Positions 31,349-41,107 of a DNA stretch of 64,000 nt are shown here, one piece after another. The notes beneath the pieces were generated by a model, which did not search any database, had not been told where the DNA came from, and saw only the letters and a program-made list of their open reading frames with translations. Source of the DNA: Nitrosopumilaceae archaeon (GTDB lineage: Archaea; Thermoproteota; Nitrososphaeria; Nitrososphaerales; Nitrosopumilaceae); contig CBDBCR010000003.1 in assembly GCA_965203465.1 (NCBI GenBank), positions 288,001 to 352,000 of the forward strand. The letters run 5' to 3'. Both the position numbers and the translations under genes were made by a program. How positions within the stretch are numbered: position 1 is the first letter of the stretch; each line of letters opens with the position of its first letter.

Positions 31349-34300
31349 TCAGATCTTCCTTGCAAGACGCGCCGCGGCCGGGGCGGCTGCCGCAAGACCC
31401 GCTGCGACAGCCGCGTGCCAGAGCTCGAACGCGGGCGCCGCTCGCCCCGGTTCGCGCGGCTCGCGCAAAAGAACCGGCGCGTCTTGGGCGGTCGCGGTTT
31501 TCGGCGCGGGCGGCTCGGCCTCTAGATCCCCGGGCCCGTCCGGCGCGGGAGCCGCGGATTCGGGGGCGTCGGACGGGGCCGTCGTCGGAGGCGAGCCGGT
31601 TTTGGGAGTTGCGGCCGGCGCAGAGCTGGCGCGAGGGCCAGGCGCGTCGGTCGTGGCTCCCGCGTCTTCGGGCTCGGGCGGCCCGGCCCCCGCGGCCGGG
31701 GGCGCGGCCGGCTCCGGCGCCCGCACGTCCGGCAGCGCGCCGAACGCCGTGAACCGGACCGAGCCCGAGCACGATTCCGTGTCCACGATCTGGGAAACGC
31801 CGGCGGCCTGGCCGCCCCGGTGCGCCGCCCTGATCTCCAGCAGCGCCGCGTCGGGCAGTATGGGCGCCTCCCAGACCGCCGAATCCGGCGCGCCGTACGG
31901 CTGCCCGACGGGGCGCGCCGCGGTGACGGCGCCGGCCTGCTCCAGCGTCACTGCGGCGTGGGACGGCGATGCCGCCACCCTTGCGTGCGGCACCTCAGAG
32001 CACCGCTCGTAAGAGACCGCGTGTATGACCGCCAGCGCGATTCCCGTCCCGCCCGGGCCCCTCGCGATGTCGGCGGGCCGGCCCGCCGCGCCCGGGCCGG
32101 GCGGATCGGGGACGGGTTCGGCCGGCGCCGGCTCCCCGTGGACGGCGCCGTCCGACACCGAAGGCGCGTCGCCCGCGTTGGCCGACGCGCGCGAGCCGGT
32201 CGCCGCGCCGTCGCCCAGGACCGGCGAATCTGAAAGCAGAATCGCAGACGCGCCGGCGCGCGCAGAGTCTGCCAGGACGGGCGAGTCCGACTCTGCTACG
32301 GAAGAGACGCGCGCAAGCGCAGAGTCTGCGATCGTAGGCGAGCTCGAATCGGAGGCGTTGCGCGCGCTCCCCCAGCGCGCCGAATCGAACGGGGCCTGGA
32401 GGCTGGACGCGGGAAACGACGACTTGTATGCCCGCGCAGAGTCGGAAGGCGCCTGCGAGTCGGACAGGGGGCGGGAGAGGGCCGCCAGCCCGGAGGCAGA
32501 GTCGGAGAGGGCCGGCGAGCTGGACTGCGCGGAGCCGGACCTGTAGGCGCGCGCAGAGTCGGAAAACGTGGCGCCGTCGGACGGCCCCTGCACGAACAGG
32601 CCCGCGTACGAGGCCGAGTCGGACGGCGACAGCGAATCCCGGGCCGACGCGGACGACTTGAACGAGGCCGCGGAGTCGGAAAAGACGCCCGTGTCCGCAG
32701 AGACGGCCACCCGCATGCCCGCCCGCCCCGCAGAGTCCGAAAAGTCCGGCGAGCTCGACTGCGCAAAGCCGGACCTGTAGGCGCGCGCAGAGTCCGAGAC
32801 GGTCGCGGCGTCGGACAGTCCGGCGAGCCGCATGCTCGCAACGGACGCGGTGTCCGAAAAGGCCGCCGTGTCGGACAGCGAGCTGAGCACCATGTTGGCG
32901 CCCGAGGCCGAGTCCGAAAAGGCGGCGGTGTCGGAGGAAAGAAAGACCGACTTGTACGAGCGGGCGGAGTCGGAAAAGGCGGCGGTGTCGGACAGCGAGC
33001 TGAGCACCATGTTGGCGCCCGAGGCCGAGTCCGAAAAGGCGGCGGTGTCGGAGGAAAGAAAGACCGACTTGTACGAGCGGGCGGAGTCGGAAAAGGCGGC
33101 GGTGTCGGCGGAGACCGACACCTTCATGTCAGCCCGGGAGGCGGAGTCCGAAAAGGCCGCCGTGTCGGAGGAAAGGAAGACCGACTTGTACGAGCGGGCG
33201 GAGTCGGAAAAGGCGGCGGTGTCGGCGGAGACCGACACCTTCATGTCAGCCCGGGAGGCGGAGTCCGAAAAGGCCGCCGTGTCGGAGGAAAGGAAGACCG
33301 ACTTGTACGAGCGGGCGGAGTCTGAGAATGCGACAGTTTCCGAAGATGTGCGGATCGCCGCGTGCTTGCCCGCCACAGAGCTTGTAAGAACAGGCGAGCT
33401 TGACGGGACAAGGGACGACTTGTACGCCCGGACAGAGTCGGAAAAGACGGCGGTGTCGCCAGACGCGCGCACCAGCGCGTTGAGGTTCAGGGCGAGGTCT
33501 GAAAGCGCGGCGGTGTCCGAAGAAGCCCTGACCAGTGCGCTCGTGCTCACGGCGGAATCTGAAAAGGCGGCCAGATTCTGCTCGACAAAGCTGGACTTGT
33601 GAGATCTGACAGAGGCTGAAAGCGCGGCGGTGTCTGAGGAAACAGAAGCGGACTGGTACGAGCGGGCAGAGTCGGAAAAGACGGCGGTGTCGCCAGACGC
33701 GCGCACCAGCGCGTTGAGGTTCAGGGCGGGATCCGAGAACGCCGGCGTGTCCGCCGCGACAAAGCCGGACTTGTGCGCGCGCTCGGAGCTTGAAAGGCCC
33801 GGCGAGCTTGACGGCGCAAAGCCGGACTTGTGCGTCCTTGCAGAGTCCGAGAACGCCGGGGAGTCGCGGGCCAGCGCCAGTTCGACCTCCAGCTGCGCGC
33901 CAGTCGTGCCCGCAAAAGCGTTGCCCACCAAGTCCTCGAACGCGCTGCCCGATACGGTGATGCGCAACGGGCCGTCGCGCAGGTGAGCCAGCACCAAGCC
34001 GCGCGTCTGCTCTCCGGTCAGCCGAAGCGCCAGCGCGTCCGCATCCTGCGCGGGGGCCGCGGCCCCGCCAAGCTGCGTGCTGGAGGCGAGGCCCAACACG
34101 GCGACGCCGCCCGGATCGATCTCGGAGGCGTCGATCGGCTCGTCGAAATCCAGCTCCAGCGCCCCCAAGGCGAGATCAAGGCGCGGCGTCGCCTCCAGCG
34201 TCGGCCTGATCCCGTCTATCGACAGATCCTTTGAGAACGAGAGCGAATCGAGCGACCCGGGCCGGGGGAGGCCCAGCACCGCCGTGTCGCTAGACGCCTC

Positions 34301-37300
34301 GACGGAGCCGCCCCGCAGCGTCAGGGAAGAGCGCCCCACGTATTCCAAGTCCGGCGACCAGTCGCCTTGCTGTACCGTGTACCCGAAGGCCAGCGTGTCC
34401 GTCCCTGAGCCAGAGGCGTACGCCGCGGGCCTGTCCGTCGCGCCGGTCTCGAGCAGCAGCGCCGGCGAGCCGGTCACGCTGACCGGCTCAGAAAACTCCA
34501 CTTCTATTTCGATCCGGCTGCCCGGCCCGTACGGGCCGTCGGGCGTAGTAGAGCCGACGCCCTCCACAAAAGGCGGCCGGAACGCGGACATGACGTACGT
34601 TGCGCCCCGGTCGTCGTTGCCGCTGTCGTCGTGCGCGGGCCCGCCGACGGCGAATTCGGCCGATCCGTCGCCGTCCAGATCCCCGACGGCGGCAACCGAG
34701 GCCCCGAAGCGGTCGCCGACCGCGATCCCGGGCGCCGCGGCCGCGCCGGTATAGTGCGTCTCCTTTACGTATCCGTCGGGGCCGAGCAGCATCAGGTAGG
34801 CCGAGCCGTCCGCGCCCGCCAGCAAGTCCTCCGTCCCGTCCCTGTCGACGTCCCCGGCCCGTGCCACCGACGAGCCGAAGCGGTCGCCGTCGGCCAGCGG
34901 CGGCCCGTTCGAGGTCAGGCTGCTCAGTTCGACGGCGCCTGGCTTTAGCGTGCCGTCGGAGTTGAGGAACAGCAGGTGGACGGCGCCGCGGTTGGCGCCG
35001 CCCGCGTCGCGCCCGCTCGATCCCACCGCCAAGTCCTGAACGCCGTCGCGGTCCAGGTCTCCGATGCCGGCCACCGACGAGCCGAACAGGTCGCCAAAGG
35101 TCACCGACGGCATGTTGGCGGCCGCAGAATCGAGCTTTGCCGTGCTTTTGACTGTGCCGTCCGAGTTGAGGAAGATCAGGTGCGCCGAGCCCAGGCCGCC
35201 GTCGCGCGGGGCGCCCGCGGCCAGATCGGGCACCCCGTCGCGGTCCAGGTCGCCGATGCCGGCCACCGACGAGCCGAAGCGGTCGCCTATCCTCAGCGAT
35301 GGCCCGTTGGTCACCGAGCCGTCTATCTCGACCGTCCTCTTTACGGTGCCGTCCGAATTCATGTACAGCAGGTGGACGGCGCCGGTCTCGTTTAGGTCGC
35401 CCCATGCCCCCGCGGCCAGGTCGGCCACGCCGTCGCGGTCCAGATCCCCTATCTCTGCCACCGACGAGCCGAACATGTCGCCGCGCCCTAGCGCGGGCGC
35501 GTTGGGCGTGCCCGCTTTTATGGCGCGCGACTCCGAGGTTCCGTCCGCGCCGAGGAACAGCAGGTGGACGGCGCCCGCGTTTCTTGCGCCGGTGCGGTCG
35601 CCCGCGGCCCCCACGGCCAGATCTTCCACCCCGTCGCGGTTCAGGTCTCCGATGCCGGCCACCGACGAGCCGAACATGTCGCCGGCGGCCAGTGACACGT
35701 CCGGCCCGCTTTCGCTCATCCGGACGGCCCTGCTTACAGAAGAATCCACGCCCATGAAAAGCACGTACGCGTCGCCGCCGGTTCCCGCGGACTTTGCCCC
35801 CACGGCCAGGTCGGCCACGCCGTCGCCGTCCAGATCCCCCAGGCTCGCCACCGAAGAGCCGAATTCGTCGCCTGCGCCGGGCGCCGGAACCCCACCGGCC
35901 GCGCGGCCGATGTCCCTCGAGCTTTTCAGGGTGCCGTCCGAGTTGAGCATCAGCAGGTGTAAAATCCCAGAGTTGTTGCCCGGCCCGTCGTTGGACTCGG
36001 CGCCGGCGGCGATGTCGGGCACCCCGTCGCCGTCCAGATCGCCCACCGCTGCCACCGAAGATCCGAATTCGGCGCCGAGCGAGAGGGCGGGGCCGCCGGG
36101 CGTCTGCCTGTCGATCTTGGAATAGCCCTTTGCCGTGCCGTCCGAGTTCATCAAGAGCACGTGGACGGCGCCGTATGGATGTGACACCACGCGGCCCGGT
36201 TGGACGGTCTGGGCGCGCGCGTCGCGCACGGCCCCCACGGCCAGGTCGGCCACGCCGTCGCCGTCCAGATCCCCGGCGGCCGCCACCGAAGATCCGAAAT
36301 AGTCGAAGACGTCGGACAAAGCGGATGTCACCCTCGCCGTCTCCTTTATCGTCCTGTCCTGGTTCATGAAGAGCACGTGGACGGCGCCGTCGACGGGGGC
36401 CCCCACGGCCAGGTCGTCCACGCCGTCGCCGTCCAGATCCCCTATGCCCGCGGCCGAATATCCGAACCAGTCGTTGTCGGCAAGCGCGGGGCCGCGCGCC
36501 GTCCGGTCGTTTATCTTCGATGCGCTCTTTGCCGTCCCGTCGGAGTTGAGCAGCACGATGTACAGGGCGCCCCGGTCGGCGCCGGTAGCGCCCGCCGCCG
36601 GGGCCGCCACGGCAGTGTCTGTCCCGTGCGCCCCCACCGCCATGTCCGGTATCCCGTCGCCGTCCAGATCCCCCGTCGCTGCCACCGACGAGCCGAAATA
36701 GTCCATGTCGGACAGGGCCGGCCCGCCGCCTGTTCCGCTCGCGATCTTTGTAATCTCGTCGATGGAGCCGTCCGCGTGCATCAGGGCCACATAGACCGCG
36801 CCCCGATCGGTTCCCCCCGCGTCGTCCCTGTCGGCGCCCACCGCCAGGTCCGGCACGCCGTCGGAGTTGATGTCGCCCAGCACGGCGGCCGAGGCGCCAA
36901 ATCTGTCCATGTTGTCCAGCGTAGGCAGCACTCCGCTGTCGCCGCTCAGCCTCAGGACCGCGCGCATCGTGCCGTCCCCCGACGGGGCCGTGACGTCGAG
37001 GCGGACGATGTGCACGGTGCCCGCGTTGGCCCAGCGCGCATCGTCCCCCGTCGCCCCCACCGCCAGATCCTCGATCCCGTCGAGGTCCAGGTCGCCCATC
37101 AGGGCCACTGACCGGCCGAACTCGTCGCCGGCCGCGAGCTGCGGGCCGTTGGCCGTCGAGGCGTTGATCTCGGCGGTGCGCTTCACCGTGCCGTCCTGGT
37201 TGAGGAACAGCAGGTGGACGGCGCCGGTCTCGCTCAAGCGGCCCCACGCCCCCGCGGCCAGATCGGGTACGCCGTCTCTGTCCAGATCCCCCACGGCTGC

Positions 37301-38587
37301 CGCCGACGAGCCGAAAAAGTCGCTCGCTGCGAGCCGCGGGCCGTTGGCCGTCGAGGCGTTGATCTCGGCGGTCCTTTTCACGGTGCCGTCCGGGTTCATG
37401 TACAGCAGGTGGACGGCGCCCGCGTCCGTGCCACCCGCGTCGTCGCCCACCGCGCCGACTGCGATGTCGCCCGTCCCGTCGCGGTCTAGATCGCCCATCA
37501 GGGCCACTGACCGGCCGAACTCGTCGCCGGCCACGAGCTGCGGGCCGTTGGCCGTCGAGGCGTTTATCGGGGCTGTGCGCTTCACGGTGCCGTCCGAGTT
37601 AAGGAACATCACGTAGACGGTGCCCGCGTCGGTCGCCTTGGCGCCGTCTTCGCTGGCCCCCACTGCCAAATCCTGCGTCCCGTCTCTGTCCAGATCCCCG
37701 ACGGCTGCCGCCGACGAGCCGAAGAAGTCGCCTCGTTCAAGCTGCGGGCCGTTGGCCGTCGAGGCGTTGATCTCGACGGTGCGCTTCACCGTGCCGTCCT
37801 GGTTGAGGAACAGCAGGTGGACGGCGCCGGCGTTCTCTGCCCCCGCGTCGTCGCCCCACGCGCCTGCGGCCAGATCCGGCACCCCGTCTCGGTCAAGATC
37901 CCCCATTGCGGCAAGGGAGGAGCCGAACAGATCGCCGGCCGCGAGCTGCGGGCCGTTGGCCGTCGAGGCGTTGATCTCGACGGTGCGCTTCACCGTGCCG
38001 TCCTGGTTGAGGAACAGCAGGTGGACGGCGCCGGCCCGGTTCCCGCCCCCGTCGTCGCTCCATGCCCCCACGGCCAGATCCTGCACCCCGTCTCGGTCAA
38101 GATCCCCCATTGCGGCAAGGGAGGAGCCGAATTGGTCGCCGAAGGCAATCTGCGGCCCGTTGGCAGTCAGGCCGTTGATCTCGGTGGTCAGGTCAGGATA
38201 CGCGTAGTTGCGCGCCACCGCCTCGTCCCCCCCGAAGCCTAGCAGCAGCGCGTGGGGGCCTGCCGTATTTACCCTGACCGAGAGGGTGGCGATGCCGCCC
38301 CCTTCGAACCCTGCAAAGACCAAGCTACCGCCGTCCGATTCGGGCGCGACGGGCCGCCCCGCCGCGTCGCGCAGTTCCGCAAACGAGACATCCGCCCCGA
38401 GGGCGGTGCCGTCGGCGCCCGAGACGGTCAGGTCGTGCGTTCCCCGCGCTTCGAACCGCACCTGCCACAGCCCGCCCACCTCCGGGTGCGACTGCTGGTT
38501 CAGCACGGTTATGCGGTTGGCGAGATCGGTAGGCGGCGCCGCGTGCGCCCACAGCGCGGGCGCGCACGCGAGCGACGCGGACAACAA
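31349..38587 (-). CDS. Giant surface protein: 18 FG-GAP (integrin-alpha-like) repeats, Ig-like domains, Ser/Ala/Asp stalk and C-terminal anchor
   Basis: FGSS...GDLD.DG..DLAVGA repeats; SDTAAFSDSA repeats; Pro-rich linker, hydrophobic tail, RK. Confidence 0.9.
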   Translation of the reverse strand: MLSASLACAPALWAHAAPPTDLANRITVLNQQSHPEVGGLWQVRFEARGTHDLTVSGADGTALGADVSFAELRDAAGRPVAPESDGGSLVFAGFEGGGIATLSVRVNTAGPHALLLGFGGDEAVARNYAYPDLTTEINGLTANGPQIAFGDQFGSSLAAMGDLDRDGVQDLAVGAWSDDGGGNRAGAVHLLFLNQDGTVKRTVEINASTANGPQLAAGDLFGSSLAAMGDLDRDGVPDLAAGAWGDDAGAENAGAVHLLFLNQDGTVKRTVEINASTANGPQLERGDFFGSSAAAVGDLDRDGTQDLAVGASEDGAKATDAGTVYVMFLNSDGTVKRTAPINASTANGPQLVAGDEFGRSVALMGDLDRDGTGDIAVGAVGDDAGGTDAGAVHLLYMNPDGTVKRTAEINASTANGPRLAASDFFGSSAAAVGDLDRDGVPDLAAGAWGRLSETGAVHLLFLNQDGTVKRTAEINASTANGPQLAAGDEFGRSVALMGDLDLDGIEDLAVGATGDDARWANAGTVHIVRLDVTAPSGDGTMRAVLRLSGDSGVLPTLDNMDRFGASAAVLGDINSDGVPDLAVGADRDDAGGTDRGAVYVALMHADGSIDEITKIASGTGGGPALSDMDYFGSSVAATGDLDGDGIPDMAVGAHGTDTAVAAPAAGATGADRGALYIVLLNSDGTAKSASKINDRTARGPALADNDWFGYSAAGIGDLDGDGVDDLAVGAPVDGAVHVLFMNQDRTIKETARVTSALSDVFDYFGSSVAAAGDLDGDGVADLAVGAVRDARAQTVQPGRVVSHPYGAVHVLLMNSDGTAKGYSKIDRQTPGGPALSLGAEFGSSVAAVGDLDGDGVPDIAAGAESNDGPGNNSGILHLLMLNSDGTLKSSRDIGRAAGGVPAPGAGDEFGSSVASLGDLDGDGVADLAVGAKSAGTGGDAYVLFMGVDSSVSRAVRMSESGPDVSLAAGDMFGSSVAGIGDLNRDGVEDLAVGAAGDRTGARNAGAVHLLFLGADGTSESRAIKAGTPNAPALGRGDMFGSSVAEIGDLDRDGVADLAAGAWGDLNETGAVHLLYMNSDGTVKRTVEIDGSVTNGPSLRIGDRFGSSVAGIGDLDRDGVPDLAAGAPRDGGLGSAHLIFLNSDGTVKSTAKLDSAAANMPSVTFGDLFGSSVAGIGDLDRDGVQDLAVGSSGRDAGGANRGAVHLLFLNSDGTLKPGAVELSSLTSNGPPLADGDRFGSSVARAGDVDRDGTEDLLAGADGSAYLMLLGPDGYVKETHYTGAAAAPGIAVGDRFGASVAAVGDLDGDGSAEFAVGGPAHDDSGNDDRGATYVMSAFRPPFVEGVGSTTPDGPYGPGSRIEIEVEFSEPVSVTGSPALLLETGATDRPAAYASGSGTDTLAFGYTVQQGDWSPDLEYVGRSSLTLRGGSVEASSDTAVLGLPRPGSLDSLSFSKDLSIDGIRPTLEATPRLDLALGALELDFDEPIDASEIDPGGVAVLGLASSTQLGGAAAPAQDADALALRLTGEQTRGLVLAHLRDGPLRITVSGSAFEDLVGNAFAGTTGAQLEVELALARDSPAFSDSARTHKSGFAPSSSPGLSSSERAHKSGFVAADTPAFSDPALNLNALVRASGDTAVFSDSARSYQSASVSSDTAALSASVRSHKSSFVEQNLAAFSDSAVSTSALVRASSDTAALSDLALNLNALVRASGDTAVFSDSVRAYKSSLVPSSSPVLTSSVAGKHAAIRTSSETVAFSDSARSYKSVFLSSDTAAFSDSASRADMKVSVSADTAAFSDSARSYKSVFLSSDTAAFSDSASRADMKVSVSADTAAFSDSARSYKSVFLSSDTAAFSDSASGANMVLSSLSDTAAFSDSARSYKSVFLSSDTAAFSDSASGANMVLSSLSDTAAFSDTASVASMRLAGLSDAATVSDSARAYRSGFAQSSSPDFSDSAGRAGMRVAVSADTGVFSDSAASFKSSASARDSLSPSDSASYAGLFVQGPSDGATFSDSARAYRSGSAQSSSPALSDSASGLAALSRPLSDSQAPSDSARAYKSSFPASSLQAPFDSARWGSARNASDSSSPTIADSALARVSSVAESDSPVLADSARAGASAILLSDSPVLGDGAATGSRASANAGDAPSVSDGAVHGEPAPAEPVPDPPGPGAAGRPADIARGPGGTGIALAVIHAVSYERCSEVPHARVAASPSHAAVTLEQAGAVTAARPVGQPYGAPDSAVWEAPILPDAALLEIRAAHRGGQAAGVSQIVDTESCSGSVRFTAFGALPDVRAPEPAAPPAAGAGPPEPEDAGATTDAPGPRASSAPAATPKTGSPPTTAPSDAPESAAPAPDGPGDLEAEPPAPKTATAQDAPVLLREPREPGRAAPAFELWHAAVAAGLAAAAPAAARLARKI

Positions 38588-38666
38588 CAGACACGCCCAA
38601 AGTCCTCTGGAACAGGGTGCAGGACATCGCGGCCGGCGGGGCGCGGGCTGACGGCCCCGAGGCGTA

Positions 38667-38679
38667 CCCCCCCCCCCCC
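38667..38679 (-). repeat. G13 homopolymer in the adhesin 5' region
   Basis: C13 on the + strand. Confidence 0.8.
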
Positions 38680-38872
38680 GGGCCAGCCGTACAGCATCAT
38701 GGTCTAAGACCTCGGAATAATGCGGTTTAACTTTAGCTGCGAAAAATCCGGTGCGTGTTTACGTGTCACGCCCGTCCGTTCTGCCGGTCGTGGAAGATTT
38801 CGCCCTCGCCTGTCTGATGCGTGGAGGGGGAGGCGAAATTTTCAACGCCCGGCAGACCCTGTATCAAATCTT

Positions 38873-39045
38873 ATCTGGGAGGGGAGCATGGCTCTCCGAG
38901 ATGGGCCCGAGAGTTGAACTATTCTCACCCCGCATGAGGGTGACCGGCAGACTAACTCACAACAATAGGCGGACGGGGTACTACCCCACAGAGGGTGAAT
39001 GGGAGCTTTCCGCTCAATCGGGCAAATCCACAAATCCAATGGCTT
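38873..39045 (+). ncRNA. Candidate bridge RNA
   Basis: GAGGGTGA+CCGGCAGACT (matches the reconstituted target) and GAGGGTGA+ATGGGAG (matches the element's right end); limits approximate. Confidence 0.7.
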
Positions 39046-39061
39046 CGAAGGAGGTGACACA

Positions 39062-40135
39062 TTGATCAACATTGGGATAGACGTGCACAAAAAGATGTGC
39101 GTGGCGACAATAAAAGGAAACGGCAAGGATATAATAGAACAGACCGAATTCAAGAACAGCAAAAAAGACATAGAGGCGTTCGCGGCACACGTAAAGAAGA
39201 CGCACGGCAAGAACGCCAGGGCGGTCTGCGAGGCGACCGGCAATTACTGGATGATACTGCACGACACGCTGGAGGACTGCGGCATCGACACGATCTTGGC
39301 TCACCCGGCCAAGACCAAGGCCATAGCCGAGGCAAAACTGAAAGACGACAGGGTGGACTCGGAGGTGCTCGCGGATCTGCTGCTCCTAGACATGGTTTAC
39401 GAGTCGTTCGTGCCTGACGAGCGCTACAGGAACCTGCGCAACCTGGCCAGAACCCGGCTCGACAGGGTCCGCACGGCGACGGAGCAAAAAAACAAGATAA
39501 CTGCGCTTCTGGCCAAATACGAGCACAAGCTTCCCACAAAGACGAAATTCTCAAAGACCAACTTGAAGTGGATGCGAACCGTAAGCGTCTCGCCAGTGGA
39601 CAGGCTGTCGCTGGACTCGTACCTCGACACGCTGCAGCTGATGCAGAAACAGACGGAAACGCTGGAGCGCGAGATAGCTTCCGAATGCATGGACGACGAT
39701 AGGGCAAAGCTCGTCATGACGGTCACCGGAATAGGATACGTTACCGCGCTGACCATAATCGCAGAGATAGTAGACGTAAAGAGATTCAGGACGGCCGAAA
39801 AACTCGTCTCGTACGCGGGCCTTTCTCCGTCCCACCGGAACAGCGGCGAGACCAAGCGCGGCGGCGGCATAACCAAAAAGGGGTCCGTCTGGTTAAGGAA
39901 CGCCATGGTGGAGGCGGCCAACGTCGCGGCGCGCTACGACGCTCGAATGTCTTCGACCTACGAGCGGCTGTCGAAAAGGATAGGCAAAAAGAAAGCGAAG
40001 GTGGCCATCGCGCGCCGCCTGACGGAGGTAGTCTGGCACATACTGACCGACATGGCCGAATACCGGACGCAGGACAAGGATCTAGTGCAGCGAAAGTATA
40101 AAGCGGCGGCGGCCAAAGCCCGCCCGCCTGACTGA
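39062..40135 (+). CDS. IS110 recombinase (DEDD RuvC-like plus Tnp domain)
   Basis: GIDVHK, CEATG, KDDRVDS, SYAGLSP...SG; GGAGGTGA ribosome-binding site before TTG. Confidence 0.95.
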   Translation: MINIGIDVHKKMCVATIKGNGKDIIEQTEFKNSKKDIEAFAAHVKKTHGKNARAVCEATGNYWMILHDTLEDCGIDTILAHPAKTKAIAEAKLKDDRVDSEVLADLLLLDMVYESFVPDERYRNLRNLARTRLDRVRTATEQKNKITALLAKYEHKLPTKTKFSKTNLKWMRTVSVSPVDRLSLDSYLDTLQLMQKQTETLEREIASECMDDDRAKLVMTVTGIGYVTALTIIAEIVDVKRFRTAEKLVSYAGLSPSHRNSGETKRGGGITKKGSVWLRNAMVEAANVAARYDARMSSTYERLSKRIGKKKAKVAIARRLTEVVWHILTDMAEYRTQDKDLVQRKYKAAAAKARPPD

Positions 40136-40318
40136 GCACACACTCGTTTGCAGTGGCCCGTCAATCCGGGAAGATTTGATATGGGAGACTAGGTGCTTGC
40201 CGCCCTAAGGCAAAATCCGTCCATGTTGCGCCGAAAACGGCATCGCCCCCCAGGTAGCGCGCGGCACACGCCTGCAAGCTCCGCGCCGTTGCCGGAATCC
40301 GCGCCAGCCGCGCCAGGC

Positions 40319-41107
40319 CTACGGGCCGCCGGCCCGCCTCTCGGCTATCAGCATGCCCGCAGCGTACAGCCCCATCATGGGCCCCGCGATGAGCCACATG
40401 GTGATGCCGGTGCCGTCCGGCGTGATGGCGGCCCCGAACACGACCATGACCACCACGGCTATCCTCAGGTTGCGCCTCCAGAACCGCCCGTCCAGCGCGC
40501 CCGAGGCGGTGGCCGCGTACATGATTATGGGCAGCTGGAACGACAGCCCGAAGGCCAGCACGAACTGGAGCACGAACGCCACAAAGTCGATGACGTTGAG
40601 GAACTGCAGTATCTCGGCGGACTGCCCGTACTGGTACAAAAACACCAGCGTGCTCGGAATGACCGCCAGGTACGCAAAGGCCGCGCCGCCGGCGAACAGG
40701 CCGACGGCCGGCGCCACCACCGACAGGCCCACCCGGATCTCGGCCTCGCGCAGCGCCGGCGCGACGAATCCTGCGAGCTCCCGCACGGCGACGGGCATGC
40801 AGACGAGCAGGCCGGCGAGGGCCGCGATGTACACCTGCGCGAAAAACGCCTCGCCCGGCGCCGTCTGTATCAGGTCGACCGACGGCGGCACCAGCGCGTC
40901 CTTCATGGCGACGGTTATCTGCGCGGCTATGTTGTCGAGCGGGTCCGGGACCGGATAGTACAGCCGCAGCCCCCACACCTCGGCAGGCTCGAGGTGCAAG
41001 GCCAGTATGGCGGCCGTGACGGCCCCGACGCACACGACTATCCTCAGCAGCCTCTTGCGCAGCTCTTCGAGGTGGGCGGCAAACGGCCCCTCCGAATCGA
41101 GCGCCAT
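40319..41107 (-). CDS. tatC: Twin-arginine translocase TatC
   Basis: HLEELRKRL, P.EAF, FGLSFQLP, AITPD. Confidence 0.93.
   Translation of the reverse strand: MALDSEGPFAAHLEELRKRLLRIVVCVGAVTAAILALHLEPAEVWGLRLYYPVPDPLDNIAAQITVAMKDALVPPSVDLIQTAPGEAFFAQVYIAALAGLLVCMPVAVRELAGFVAPALREAEIRVGLSVVAPAVGLFAGGAAFAYLAVIPSTLVFLYQYGQSAEILQFLNVIDFVAFVLQFVLAFGLSFQLPIIMYAATASGALDGRFWRRNLRIAVVVMVVFGAAITPDGTGITMWLIAGPMMGLYAAGMLIAERRAGGP

What the first reader, a model, noticed from the sequence alone, without database searches (positions are those of the whole stretch)
38849..40195. Archaeal IS110 with readable bridge-RNA guides
Seen: removing the element restores the target CCGGCAGACTAGG. The 5' non-coding end contains CCGGCAGACT (38944-53), a 10/10 match that crosses the junction, and ATGGGAG (38999-39005), identical to the element's right end (40181-87). 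Each match follows the same GAGGGTGA octamer that closes a hairpin. Known: IS110 recombinases use bispecific bridge RNAs. Unusual here: an archaeal host, two self-similar guide modules, and sub-terminal IRs (an IS1111 trait) combined with an upstream non-coding end. I could not place the right-hand guides with confidence.
Basis: partly seen in the sequence, partly recalled or inferred. Interest (0 to 1): 0.78.

Follow-up and report, generated by a model that had tools for sequence, protein, structure and literature searches.

The report
Archaeal insertion sequence with mirrored bridge RNA
This is a mobile DNA element in an archaeon that carries its own guide RNA for choosing where to insert; it belongs to a known kind of element, but its guides are laid out as the mirror image of the best-studied example.

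Summary
Window 38856-40187 is a 1332-bp IS110-family insertion sequence in an archaeal genome. It has an intact DEDD/Ser recombinase gene (39062-40135) and a roughly 200-nt upstream non-coding end that encodes a full bridge RNA.

- **Guides:** all four covary with flanks or element ends across about 60 non-redundant relatives from Nitrosopumilus, Bathyarchaeia and Methanophagales assemblies. A haloarchaeal plasmid element read by eye has the same layout.
- **RNA fold:** 15 of 23 pairs show compensatory changes.
- **Boundaries:** a contig from another sample carries the empty site CCGGC-AGA-CTAGG, which fixes the ends.
- **Target:** the natural target is the end of a REP-like palindromic repeat.

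What is unusual is the layout. Each loop has its right guide 5' and its left guide 3', the IS1111/seekRNA order, and the element has 11-bp sub-terminal inverted repeats, yet the RNA lies upstream as in IS110-type elements. Read on the opposite strand, it is IS621-like, including a CT core and handshake bases.

Verdict: a new variant of a known kind, of moderate interest. No RNA data were available, and the recombinase was not placed on a tree.

The parts
38780..38857 (.). REP-like palindromic genomic repeat whose end supplies the target
   Evidence: Its arms are 38780-38811 and 38825-38856, 81% complementary (I1). blastn-short finds 12 matches in the genome including this one. The ends read as CCGGCAGAATAGG-like inverted sites.
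38849..38855 (+). Left target half CCGGC plus core AG
   Evidence: Identical at the left junction of all 4 copies. Also present at unoccupied repeat ends and in the empty-site contig.
38856..40187 (+). The insertion sequence, 1332 bp counting one core copy
   Evidence: The empty-site joint skips 1332 bases. Copy B is also 1332 bp and differs at 17 positions.
38862..38872 (+). Left sub-terminal inverted repeat TATCAAATCTT
   Evidence: I7: 11 nt, 100% complementary to 40171-40181. Equivalent repeats occur in all relatives.
38905..38910 (+). Closing stem, 5' strand GCCCGA, pairing with 39018-39023 TCGGGC
   Evidence: Present in the MFE fold. The Nitrosopumilus relatives have GCCTGA/TCAGGC, a compensatory change (alignment).
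38911..38916 (+). Target-loop basal stem, 5' strand GAGTTG, pairing with 38953-38958 TAACTC
   Evidence: RNAalifold. The stem is GGCCCG/TGGGCC in Bathyarchaeia. 4 of its 5 pairs show changes on both sides (helix 2).
38919..38925 (+). Right target guide (RTG) CTATTCT, the reverse complement of core AG + AATAG
   Evidence: Complementary to the right junction of copies B and C and to empty repeat ends. The same structural position covaries with right flanks in relatives.
38926..38942 (+). Target-loop distal hairpin CACCC...GGGTG
   Evidence: The 38926 C/T difference among copies keeps the pair, C-G versus U.G.
38944..38952 (+). Left target guide (LTG) CCGGC+AG (38944-50) plus 2-nt extension AC (38951-52), which equals the first 2 bases of the element
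   Evidence: The extension matches the left end in 38 of 49 non-redundant pairs: AC/AC in 33 and AA/AA in 5.
38968..38973 (+). Donor-loop basal stem, 5' strand GGCGGA, pairing with 39009-39014 TCCGCT
   Evidence: helix 5, 97.4% of cells paired. In this row the register was read by eye, because MAFFT shifted it by 2.
38973..38982 (+). Right donor guide (RDG) ACGGGGT(A)CT, complementary to AG+ACCCTGT of the left end, with one G.T pair and one bulged A
   Evidence: Read from the sequence. The position is supported by relatives read by eye: L129 CTACACGACT versus AGACGTGTA, L041 TACTT versus AAGTA. This is the weakest of the four guides.
38983..38996 (+). Donor-loop distal hairpin ACCC...GGGT
   Evidence: helix 6: 4 of 4 pairs with changes on both sides. 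In this single sequence a competing hairpin, GGGG-TACTA-CCCC, is also possible.
38999..39007 (+). Left donor guide (LDG) ATGGG+AG (38999-39005) plus 2-nt extension CT
   Evidence: Identical to the right end at 40181-87. The variants ATAGGAG, ATGGAAG and ATGGATG track the right ends of relatives.
39050..39057 (+). Shine-Dalgarno-like GGAGGTGA
   Evidence: Nearly invariant in the 21-sequence alignment.
39062..40135 (+). Recombinase gene: TTG start, 357 aa
   Evidence: Pfam DEDD_Tnp_IS110 (1.4e-25) and Transposase_20 (1.1e-25). The start aligns with the ATG/GTG starts of relatives. D7, E57, D96, D99 and S261 align with IS621's motifs (with residue roles).
40171..40181 (+). Right sub-terminal inverted repeat AAGATTTGATA
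   Evidence: I7.
40181..40187 (+). Left donor half ATGGG plus core AG: the element's right end
40188..40193 (+). Right target half of this copy, ACTAGG (consensus AATAGG)

Best explanation
An autonomous, recently active IS110-family insertion sequence of an archaeon. I infer that it moves by bridge-RNA-guided recombination.

**RNA layout.** The upstream non-coding end is transcribed (inferred) into an RNA of about 120-200 nt. A closing stem carries two similar arms, and each arm is an internal loop between a basal stem and a distal hairpin.
[quoted passage not shown] - Two further bases after the left target guide (AC) equal the first two bases of the element. I read them as handshake bases that pair only after strand exchange.

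**Reaction (inferred by homology to IS621).** The DEDD/Ser recombinase, bound to both loops, recombines the circle junction ...GATATGGG-AG-ACCCTGTATC... with the target CCGGC-AG-AATAG at the AG core.

**Mirror relation.** Read on the opposite strand, the system is a mirror of IS621. The core is CT, the 5' guide is the long one, the 3' guide is short, and it is followed by handshake bases complementary to donor positions 6-7. So the RNA-plus-gene cassette is inverted relative to the recombination sites. This is the guide order reported for IS1111-type seekRNAs, but here the RNA lies upstream of the gene.
For: **Protein.** Pfam DEDD_Tnp_IS110 and Transposase_20 both hit. The best solved relatives are the IS621 (E 2e-16) and ISCro4 transposases, with the IGID, EATG, DxxD and SG motifs aligned. 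The ORF is intact in copies A and B.

**Copies and mobility.**
- The genome holds 4 near-identical copies plus one 74% relative.
- All 4 left junctions read CCGGCAG|ACCCTG. The right junctions read GGGAG followed by ACTAGG, AATAGG, AATAGG and ATCAGC.
- Unoccupied CCGGCAGAATAGG-like sites sit at the ends of a repeat with 12 matches in the genome.
- An empty-site contig occurs in 1 of 4 runs and skips exactly 1332 bases.

**Left target guide covariation.**
- The left-end anchor was found in 94 of 108 related loci. One more was dropped for lack of a guide anchor and the window copy was added, leaving 94 entries, 62 of them non-redundant with 37 distinct guide 9-mers.
- Own guide versus own left flank matches 4.31 of 7 positions. 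Permuted pairs give 1.87 +/- 0.16, with a maximum of 2.42 in 2000.

**Right target guide covariation.**
- 63 non-redundant loci have a located right end.
- The best match to the reverse complement of core+right flank is 7.35 of 9, against 5.76 +/- 0.13 permuted (maximum 6.17 in 1000).
- Without the dominant CGCG class (32 loci) it is 7.06 against 5.08 +/- 0.17.
- The best match usually falls at the same structural place. Examples are L108 CTTAAAACT and L111 CGTAAGGCT, each 9 of 9 in that test, and both extend to 10 of 10 by eye.

**Donor guides.** The variants ATGGGAG, ATAGGAG, ATGGAAG and ATGGATG follow the right ends.

**Handshake-like positions.**
- The base after the donor guide equals right-target base 1 in 48 of 63 loci. 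The permutation maximum is 44, with 0 of 5000 reaching the observed value.
- The extension after the target guide equals the first two bases of the left end in 38 of 49 non-redundant pairs.

**RNA structure.**
- RNAalifold on 21 sequences gives 19 pairs, 12 with compensatory changes.
- On 61 sequences it gives 23 pairs, 15 compensatory, with 97.9% of cells paired.
- Slid partners give 27-49% paired and 2-4 compensatory pairs. 0 of 500 shuffles reach any observed measure.

**Guide rules and order in the literature.**
- Passages of Durrant 2024 (PMC11208160).
- Passages of Hiraizumi 2024 (PMC11208158).
- Passages of Siddiquee 2024 (PMC11187229).
Against: - No RNA evidence exists. No RNA run is on record for this DNA, so transcription, RNA ends and the promoter are all inferred.
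- The single-sequence fold is no better than shuffles (z = -0.04). A competing GGGG/CCCC hairpin could occlude the RDG.
- The RDG needs a bulge and a G.T pair here, and it is poorly defined in the Nitrosopumilus relatives.
- The donor-loop extension CT does not match any of this element's right targets.
- Several copies in one Nitrosopumilus assembly (L014, L028, L038 and others) sit in flanks that match a sibling's guide rather than their own. Explaining this requires action in trans or recombination between copies.
- In one search the register of each own flank was optimised over 4 shifts, and the permuted flanks kept that register. This slightly favours the observed value.
- Related sequences are not independent, so the permutation figures are not probabilities.
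- The structure tested was derived from the same alignment.
- The right ends used were located with the help of the donor guide, so the LDG test is partly circular.
Confidence: 0.9

Rival explanations
1. The internal CCGGCAGAC is not a guide. It would be a scar or repeat of the element's left junction, with CCGGCAGAC belonging to the element, or arising by duplication or slippage. The element would then choose sites through protein-DNA contacts with its sub-terminal inverted repeats.
For: All 4 copies carry CCGGCAGAC on the left, as would be expected if it were part of the element. Copy B has a tandem 95-bp duplication bounded by this 9-mer, so the 9-mer does take part in DNA-level rearrangement. 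Repeats of 9-11 nt are common by chance in this region.
Against: CCGGCAGA is present at unoccupied repeat ends. It stays behind in the empty-site contig. The internal segment changes together with the left flank in 37 distinct variants. A second segment complementary to the right flank covaries as well.
Confidence: 0.03
2. The conserved non-coding end acts as DNA or as an mRNA leader. For example, it could provide recombinase-binding sites or translational control of the recombinase gene, rather than a trans-acting guide RNA.
For: It lies directly upstream of the gene, with a conserved Shine-Dalgarno-like motif. There is no RNA evidence. Rfam 15 has no family matching it.
Against: Compensatory changes in 15 of 23 pairs argue for an RNA structure. 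A leader or binding-site role does not explain four segments that track both flanks and both ends on defined strands. Homologous elements are shown experimentally to use such RNAs (passages read).
Confidence: 0.04
3. The element is a dead relic. The guides are readable but the copies no longer move.
For: Two of the four copies are interrupted by other insertion sequences. The 74% relative carries Y in place of the first catalytic D and has a degraded non-coding end. This copy sits in a site with one mismatch to the RTG.
Against: Copies A and B have intact ORFs with the catalytic motifs and are 98.7% identical. The insertion is polymorphic between samples. Perfect unoccupied targets remain in the genome, so the system is not saturated.
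Confidence: 0.15

Closest known systems
IS621 (IS110 group) and its bridge RNA (Durrant et al. 2024, PMC11208160; Hiraizumi et al. 2024, PMC11208158; passages read)
   Same: - DEDD + Ser recombinase with the same two Pfam domains and aligned catalytic motifs.
- The RNA is encoded upstream of the gene in the left end.
- Two internal loops, one for the target and one for the donor.
- Each loop pairs with both DNA strands and overlaps a 2-nt core.
- Extra handshake bases lie beyond one guide.
- It targets a repetitive palindromic element.
- ATA/TAT flanks the programmable donor.
   Different: - Guide order in each loop is reversed. [quoted passage not shown]
- The handshake-like bases follow the left guides, not the right ones.
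- The core is AG (CT only on the opposite strand).
- Sub-terminal inverted repeats are 11 bp, against 2-3 bp.
- Protein similarity is low: phmmer E 2e-16, best stretch in the C-terminal half.
- The host is an archaeon.
IS1111-type elements and their seekRNAs (ISEc11, ISPa11, ISKpn4; Siddiquee et al. 2024, PMC11187229; passages read)
   Same: - Sub-terminal inverted repeats of 11-13 bp.
- Short asymmetric terminal extensions.
- The segment complementary to the top strand precedes the one complementary to the bottom strand.
- REP targeting, as in ISPa11.
- Recombinase of about 340-360 aa.
   Different: - The long non-coding region and its RNA lie upstream of the gene, not downstream.
- The paper notes a few such exceptions (ISMtsp17 upstream; ISHvo10 and ISAcp5 on both sides). 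In the passages I read it does not describe their guides.
- Terminal extensions here are 6 (+2 core) and 4 bp, rather than 7 and 3.
Archaeal IS110-family entries of ISfinder (ISH18/ISHvo9/ISHvo10 cluster; ISMac14/ISMba7/ISMba20/ISMma5 cluster), as listed in Durrant et al.'s supplementary protein table
   Same: They have archaeal hosts and the same family. A haloarchaeal plasmid element that I read (L136, 37% identity) shows the same layout by eye: RTG CTGTATTCC, LTG GTGCTGAC, LDG ATAGGTGA, a 15-bp sub-terminal repeat and an upstream RNA.
   Different: I could not obtain these ISfinder sequences, so relatedness to them is not tested. I saw only rows of the supplementary table, and those rows say nothing about RNA position or guide order.

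Membership tests
IS110 family (sensu lato) insertion sequence | Recombinase with an N-terminal DEDD RuvC-like domain (PF01548) and a C-terminal Transposase_20 domain (PF02371) carrying the catalytic Ser | tested here: met
   E 1.4e-25 and 1.1e-25, both above the curated cut-offs. D7, E57, D96, D99 and S261 align with the IS621 motifs.
IS110 family (sensu lato) insertion sequence | Site-specific insertion without long terminal inverted repeats; a short core shared by target and donor junction | tested here: met
   the same CCGGC-AG site at 4 of 4 copies. AG (AGA ambiguity) is shared by the target and both junctions. The empty site was recovered.
Bridge-RNA / seekRNA-guided recombination system | [quoted passage not shown] | tested here: met
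   LTG and RTG covary with the left and right flanks.
Bridge-RNA / seekRNA-guided recombination system | Second loop matching both element ends (the donor) | tested here: met
   The LDG is clear. The RDG is supported but weaker: it needs a bulge and a G.T pair here, with by-eye covariation in Bathyarchaeia relatives.
Bridge-RNA / seekRNA-guided recombination system | Conserved RNA secondary structure presenting the guides in internal loops | tested here: met
   15 of 23 pairs with compensatory changes. Guides lie between basal stems and distal hairpins.
Bridge-RNA / seekRNA-guided recombination system | The RNA is expressed, binds the recombinase and is required for and programs recombination | not testable with these tools
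   No RNA run holds the stretch. This needs bench work.
IS110 group (IS621-like) | RNA upstream of the gene, in the left end | tested here: met
IS110 group (IS621-like) | [quoted passage not shown] | tested here: not met
   the order is reversed in both loops.
IS110 group (IS621-like) | No, or only 2-3 bp, sub-terminal inverted repeats | tested here: not met
   I7: 11 bp, perfect.
IS1111 group | Sub-terminal inverted repeats of 7-17 bp | tested here: met
   I7. Relatives have 10-15 bp.
IS1111 group | The top-strand complement lies 5' of the bottom-strand complement in the RNA | tested here: met
   against the rule quoted.
IS1111 group | Long non-coding region and RNA downstream of the gene | tested here: not met
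   Only 52 bp lie between the stop (40135) and the right end (40187). The RNA is upstream.
IS1111 group | The recombinase falls in the IS1111 clade of the family tree | not tested
   No labelled IS1111 reference could be obtained. The ISEc11 record was not in the collection. Only ISEc21, ISSso6 and an unnamed Klebsiella element were fetched, and no tree was built.

The most novel reading that the evidence does not exclude
These archaeal elements (Nitrososphaeria, Bathyarchaeia, Methanophagales, Halobacteria) would form a third architectural class of bridge-RNA insertion sequences. The RNA lies upstream as in IS110-type elements, but the loops are mirror images and the sub-terminal repeats are long, as in IS1111-type elements. 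This would be the intermediate expected if the IS110 and IS1111 layouts are related by inverting the RNA-plus-gene cassette relative to the ends and then moving the RNA. The handshake bases are attached to the left guides. This implies that, in the usual orientation, the bottom strand (5'-CT-3' core) is cut and exchanged first. The conserved AAAnnTTTT core of the sub-terminal repeat might also serve as the archaeal BRE/TATA promoter of the RNA.
Probability: 0.35. Interest if true: 0.6.

Novelty: new variant of a known kind. Interest (0 to 1): 0.45.

Why it matters
Bridge and seek RNAs are the only known system in which a single RNA specifies both partners of a DNA recombination, and they are being developed as genome-writing tools. 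This locus adds three things.

1. **A fully readable natural example from archaea.** All four guides, the core, the empty site and the natural target (a REP-like repeat) are defined from sequence alone. More than 30 naturally reprogrammed relatives could serve as a ready-made specificity table.
2. **A link between the two described layouts.** The layout combines features used to separate the IS110 and IS1111 groups. The mirror-image reading suggests how those two layouts relate, and it predicts which strand is exchanged first.
3. **A set of compact archaeal recombinases (about 357 aa).** Some relatives come from sediment and methane-seep lineages, and they could be tested for properties different from IS621.

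The finding does not change the known mechanism.

Tried and rejected
- **RNA evidence.** No RNA holder is listed for window 38700-40300, so expression could not be examined.
- **Rfam.** Rfam 15 gives no family for the non-coding end at E up to 1. The only hit in 38000-41000 is a chance-level Hrs13 match elsewhere.
- **Single-sequence folding.** It gave no signal (z = -0.04), so I relied on alignments.
- **An IS621-like right target guide 3' of the left guide.** Rejected: the left guide runs directly into the basal stem. AATAGG at 38964-69 is identical to the right target, not complementary to it. It aligns with the conserved (G)AGCGG stem region of relatives, so I treat it as coincidence.
- **The hairpin loop (CGCAT) as the right guide.** Considered because this loop varies in Bathyarchaeia. 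Rejected because the best flank complement falls just before the hairpin.
- **The 74% relative in the same genome (L006).** It is decayed and uninformative for guides.
- **The closest bacterial hit (Rhizobium plasmid, 38% identity).** Read by eye. It seems to have long non-coding regions on both sides, and I could not place guides.
- **Placement on a family tree.** Not done. ISEc11 was not in the collection, and names alone do not give group membership.
- **Supplements.** Durrant et al.'s supplementary tables were only searched for names in a truncated copy. Their Table 5, which gives RNA location per ISfinder element, may already list archaeal elements of this layout. I did not see Siddiquee et al.'s supplementary figures.
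Full report
**1. What is in the sequence**

- CCGGCAGAC is at 38849-57 and 38944-52.
- ATGGGAG is at 38999-39005 and 40181-87.
- GAGGGTGA is at 38936-43 and 38991-98.
- A perfect 11-nt inverted repeat lies at 38862-72 and 40171-81 (I7).

The ORF inside carries both Pfam domains of IS110-family recombinases. Its real start is most likely the TTG at 39062, five bases after GGAGGTGA. This position aligns with the ATG/GTG starts and the same Shine-Dalgarno-like motif in all relatives. The longer ORF that begins at the ATG inside the donor guide (38999) is therefore an artefact of ORF calling.

The catalytic motifs align with those of IS621 (residue roles from the passages read; positions). The host genome is archaeal: the best rRNA models are the archaeal SSU and LSU. 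Nearly all relatives of the recombinase come from archaeal assemblies.

**2. Other copies, empty sites and boundaries**

The genome (2.26 Mb, 4 contigs) gave 8 DNA matches. They resolve as follows.
- Four near-identical copies. Two of them (C and D) are each split by another insertion sequence.
- An extra 95-bp tandem copy of the left end in front of copy B.
- One 74% relative.

All four left junctions read CCGGCAG|ACCCTGTATC. The right junctions read ...ATGGGAG followed by ACTAGG (this copy), AATAGG (B and C) and ATCAGC (D).

CCGGCAGA is not part of the element. It occurs at unoccupied sites of the form ...CATGACCGGCAGAATAGG. These are the ends of a palindromic repeat of about 85 bp, with 12 matches in the genome. 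This copy sits at one end of such a repeat and copy B at the other end of another, in inverted orientation.

Direct proof of the boundary came from public reads. In 1 of 4 runs laid on the region, a contig joins 38853 to 40186. It skips 1332 bases with a 3-base ambiguity, giving the empty site CCGGC-AGA-CTAGG.

The element is therefore 38856-40187, counting one copy of the core. Across relatives the base after AGA/AGC varies with the element rather than the target, so the core consistent with all junctions is AG. TG plays this role in the Methanophagales relatives.

Copies A and B are both 1332 bp, differ at 17 positions, and both have intact ORFs with 4 amino-acid differences.

**3. The guides**

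I collected 45 related loci from genomes and 80 from metagenomes.
- Of the 108 with a usable match, a conserved left-end anchor was found in 94. The other 14 were dropped because they had no anchor or the contig ended.
- One more locus was dropped for lack of a guide anchor, and the window copy was added.

*Left target guide.*
- The 9 bases before the conserved stem strand T(A/G)(A/G)(C/G)(T/C)C equal the last 5-7 bases of the left flank plus the core.
- There are 37 distinct guide 9-mers among 62 non-redundant pairs.
- Own pairs match 4.31 of 7 positions. Permuted pairs give 1.87 +/- 0.16 (maximum 2.42 in 2000).
- The own register was optimised over 4 shifts, which favours the observed value slightly.

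*Right target guide.*
- The reverse complement of core+right flank is found just 5' of the distal hairpin of the same loop.
- Over 63 non-redundant loci, own pairs match 7.35 of 9 positions. Permuted pairs give 5.76 +/- 0.13 (maximum 6.17 in 1000).
- Without the dominant CGCG class (32 loci), the figures are 7.06 against 5.08 +/- 0.17.
- In this element the guide is CTATTCT (38919-25). It is complementary to AG+AATAG of copies B and C and of the empty repeat ends. It has one mismatch to this copy's ACTAG and two to copy D's ATCAG.

*Left donor guide.* ATGGGAG equals the right end. The relatives' variants (ATAGGAG, ATGGAAG, ATGGATG) follow their own right ends. This test is partly circular, because the guide helped to locate the right ends.

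*Right donor guide.*
- The 5' side of the second loop, ACGGGGT(A)CT at 38973-82, can pair with AG+ACCCTGT of the left end, using one G.T pair and one bulged A.
- In Bathyarchaeia relatives the same position changes with the left end. Examples read by eye are CTACACGACT with AGACGTGTA, and TACTT with AAGTA.
- This is the weakest assignment.

*Extensions.*
- The two bases after the left target guide equal the first two bases of the element: AC/AC in 33 and AA/AA in 5 of 49 non-redundant pairs.
- The base after the left donor guide equals the first base of the right target in 48 of 63 loci. The permutation maximum is 44, with 0 of 5000 reaching the observed value.
- This second rule holds in the Bathyarchaeia-type elements but not in this element (CT against AA, AC or AT).

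**4. The RNA fold**

The single sequence does not fold better than shuffles. The alignments tell a different story.
- With 21 sequences, RNAalifold gives 19 pairs, 12 with compensatory changes.
- With 61 sequences it gives 23 pairs, 15 compensatory, and 97.9% of cells paired.
- Slid partners give 27-49% paired and 2-4 compensatory pairs. None of 500 shuffles reaches any observed measure.
- Caveat: the structure was derived from the same alignment, and the sequences are related.

The fold has a closing stem (GCCCGA/TCGGGC here; GCCTGA/TCAGGC in Nitrosopumilus relatives) around two similar arms. Each arm is a basal stem, an internal loop and a distal hairpin. In both loops the right guide is on the 5' side and the left guide on the 3' side.

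Relatives have their own repeated equivalent, for example GAGACCC in Bathyarchaeia.

**5. How it compares with what is known**

[quoted passage not shown] Two handshake bases next to the right guides pair with positions 6-7 of the other DNA's top strand after exchange (Hiraizumi 2024, passages).

In IS1111-type seekRNAs the top-strand complement comes first. The RNA lies downstream, and the sub-terminal repeats are 11-13 bp. A few exceptions with an upstream non-coding region are mentioned (Siddiquee 2024, passages).

The present element has the IS1111 order and repeats, but an upstream RNA. Read on the opposite strand it becomes IS621-like in every respect I could check.
- The core is CT.
- The 5' guide is the long one and is identical to 'left half + core'.
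- The 3' guide is short and is complementary to 'core + right half'.
- That 3' guide is followed by two bases complementary to donor positions 6-7.

I therefore read the element as the same machine with the RNA-plus-gene cassette inverted relative to the recombination sites. It follows, by inference only, that the strand exchanged first is the bottom strand in gene orientation.

**6. Novelty**

Archaeal IS110-family proteins were already in Durrant et al.'s data set (rows seen). [quoted passage not shown] REP targeting is classical for this family. The host and the existence of the RNA are therefore expected.

The upstream position combined with mirror-image loops and long sub-terminal repeats is conserved across at least three archaeal lineages. 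A haloarchaeal plasmid element shows it too (read by eye). I did not find this combination described in the passages I read or in three of my full-text searches: 'bridge RNA'+IS110+archaea, seekRNA+IS1111 and IS1111+cryo-EM+'bridge RNA' from 2025. I read only listings and selected passages, and supplements were only partly visible. I rate it a new variant of a known kind.

**7. Side observations**

The DNA encoding the left target guide (CCGGC-AG-ACTAAC) is itself a near-target. The 95-bp tandem left end of copy B is what one would get from insertion into that site followed by deletion between the two copies. It could also arise from unequal exchange at the 9-bp repeat. The sequence cannot tell these apart.

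Noticed in passing
window 38780-38857; own genome C1:106719, 278431, 540479, 825790, C3:158692, 783384, 851857, 852934, 936924 and others: A palindromic repeat of about 85 bp with 12 matches in the genome. Its two ends are inverted copies of a CCGGCAGAATAGG-like site. It is REP-like, and its own function and origin (MITE, small RNA, or protein-binding site) are unknown.
   Followed up: partly
own genome C3:936988-937082 (L008), directly before copy B: An exact extra 95-bp copy of the element's left end, ending at the guide-encoding CCGGCAG. It fits either self-insertion into the guide DNA followed by deletion, or unequal exchange at the 9-bp repeat.
   Followed up: partly
L003:354-1500 (own genome C3:728918-730064) and L004:2173-3281 (C1:501208-502316): Copies C and D are each interrupted by a different 1.1-kb element with terminal inverted repeats, TA at both junctions, and HTH + DDE_3 domains (IS630-like). 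The one in copy C looks frameshifted and occurs at 5 or more other places in the genome.
   Followed up: partly
own genome C1:168973-170009 (L006): A 74%-identical relative of the element. It has Y in place of the first catalytic D (IGIYVHRK) and a shortened, degraded non-coding end. It is probably a dead older copy.
   Followed up: partly
window 38926: This copy has C where copies B-D and contigs in all 4 runs laid have T. The change keeps the hairpin pair (C-G versus U.G).
   Followed up: yes
window 38964-38969: AATAGG in the linker between the two loops is identical, not complementary, to the consensus right target. I judge it a coincidence because it aligns with a conserved stem region in relatives.
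   Followed up: partly
window 38668-38679: A run of 12 C between the end of the giant FG-GAP repeat protein gene (31349-38587, minus strand) and the REP-like repeat.
   Followed up: no
L009-L050, contig OZ252243.1 (Nitrosopumilus sp. assembly): More than a dozen diverged copies of the related element lie in one genome, with at least four guide variants. Several copies sit in flanks that match a sibling's guide rather than their own, suggesting action in trans or recombination between copies.
   Followed up: partly
window 38866-38875 and the equivalent left-end positions of all relatives: An invariant AAAnnTT(TT) core inside the sub-terminal repeat lies about 30-40 nt upstream of the RNA's closing stem. 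It could be an archaeal BRE/TATA promoter as well as a recombinase site.
   Followed up: no
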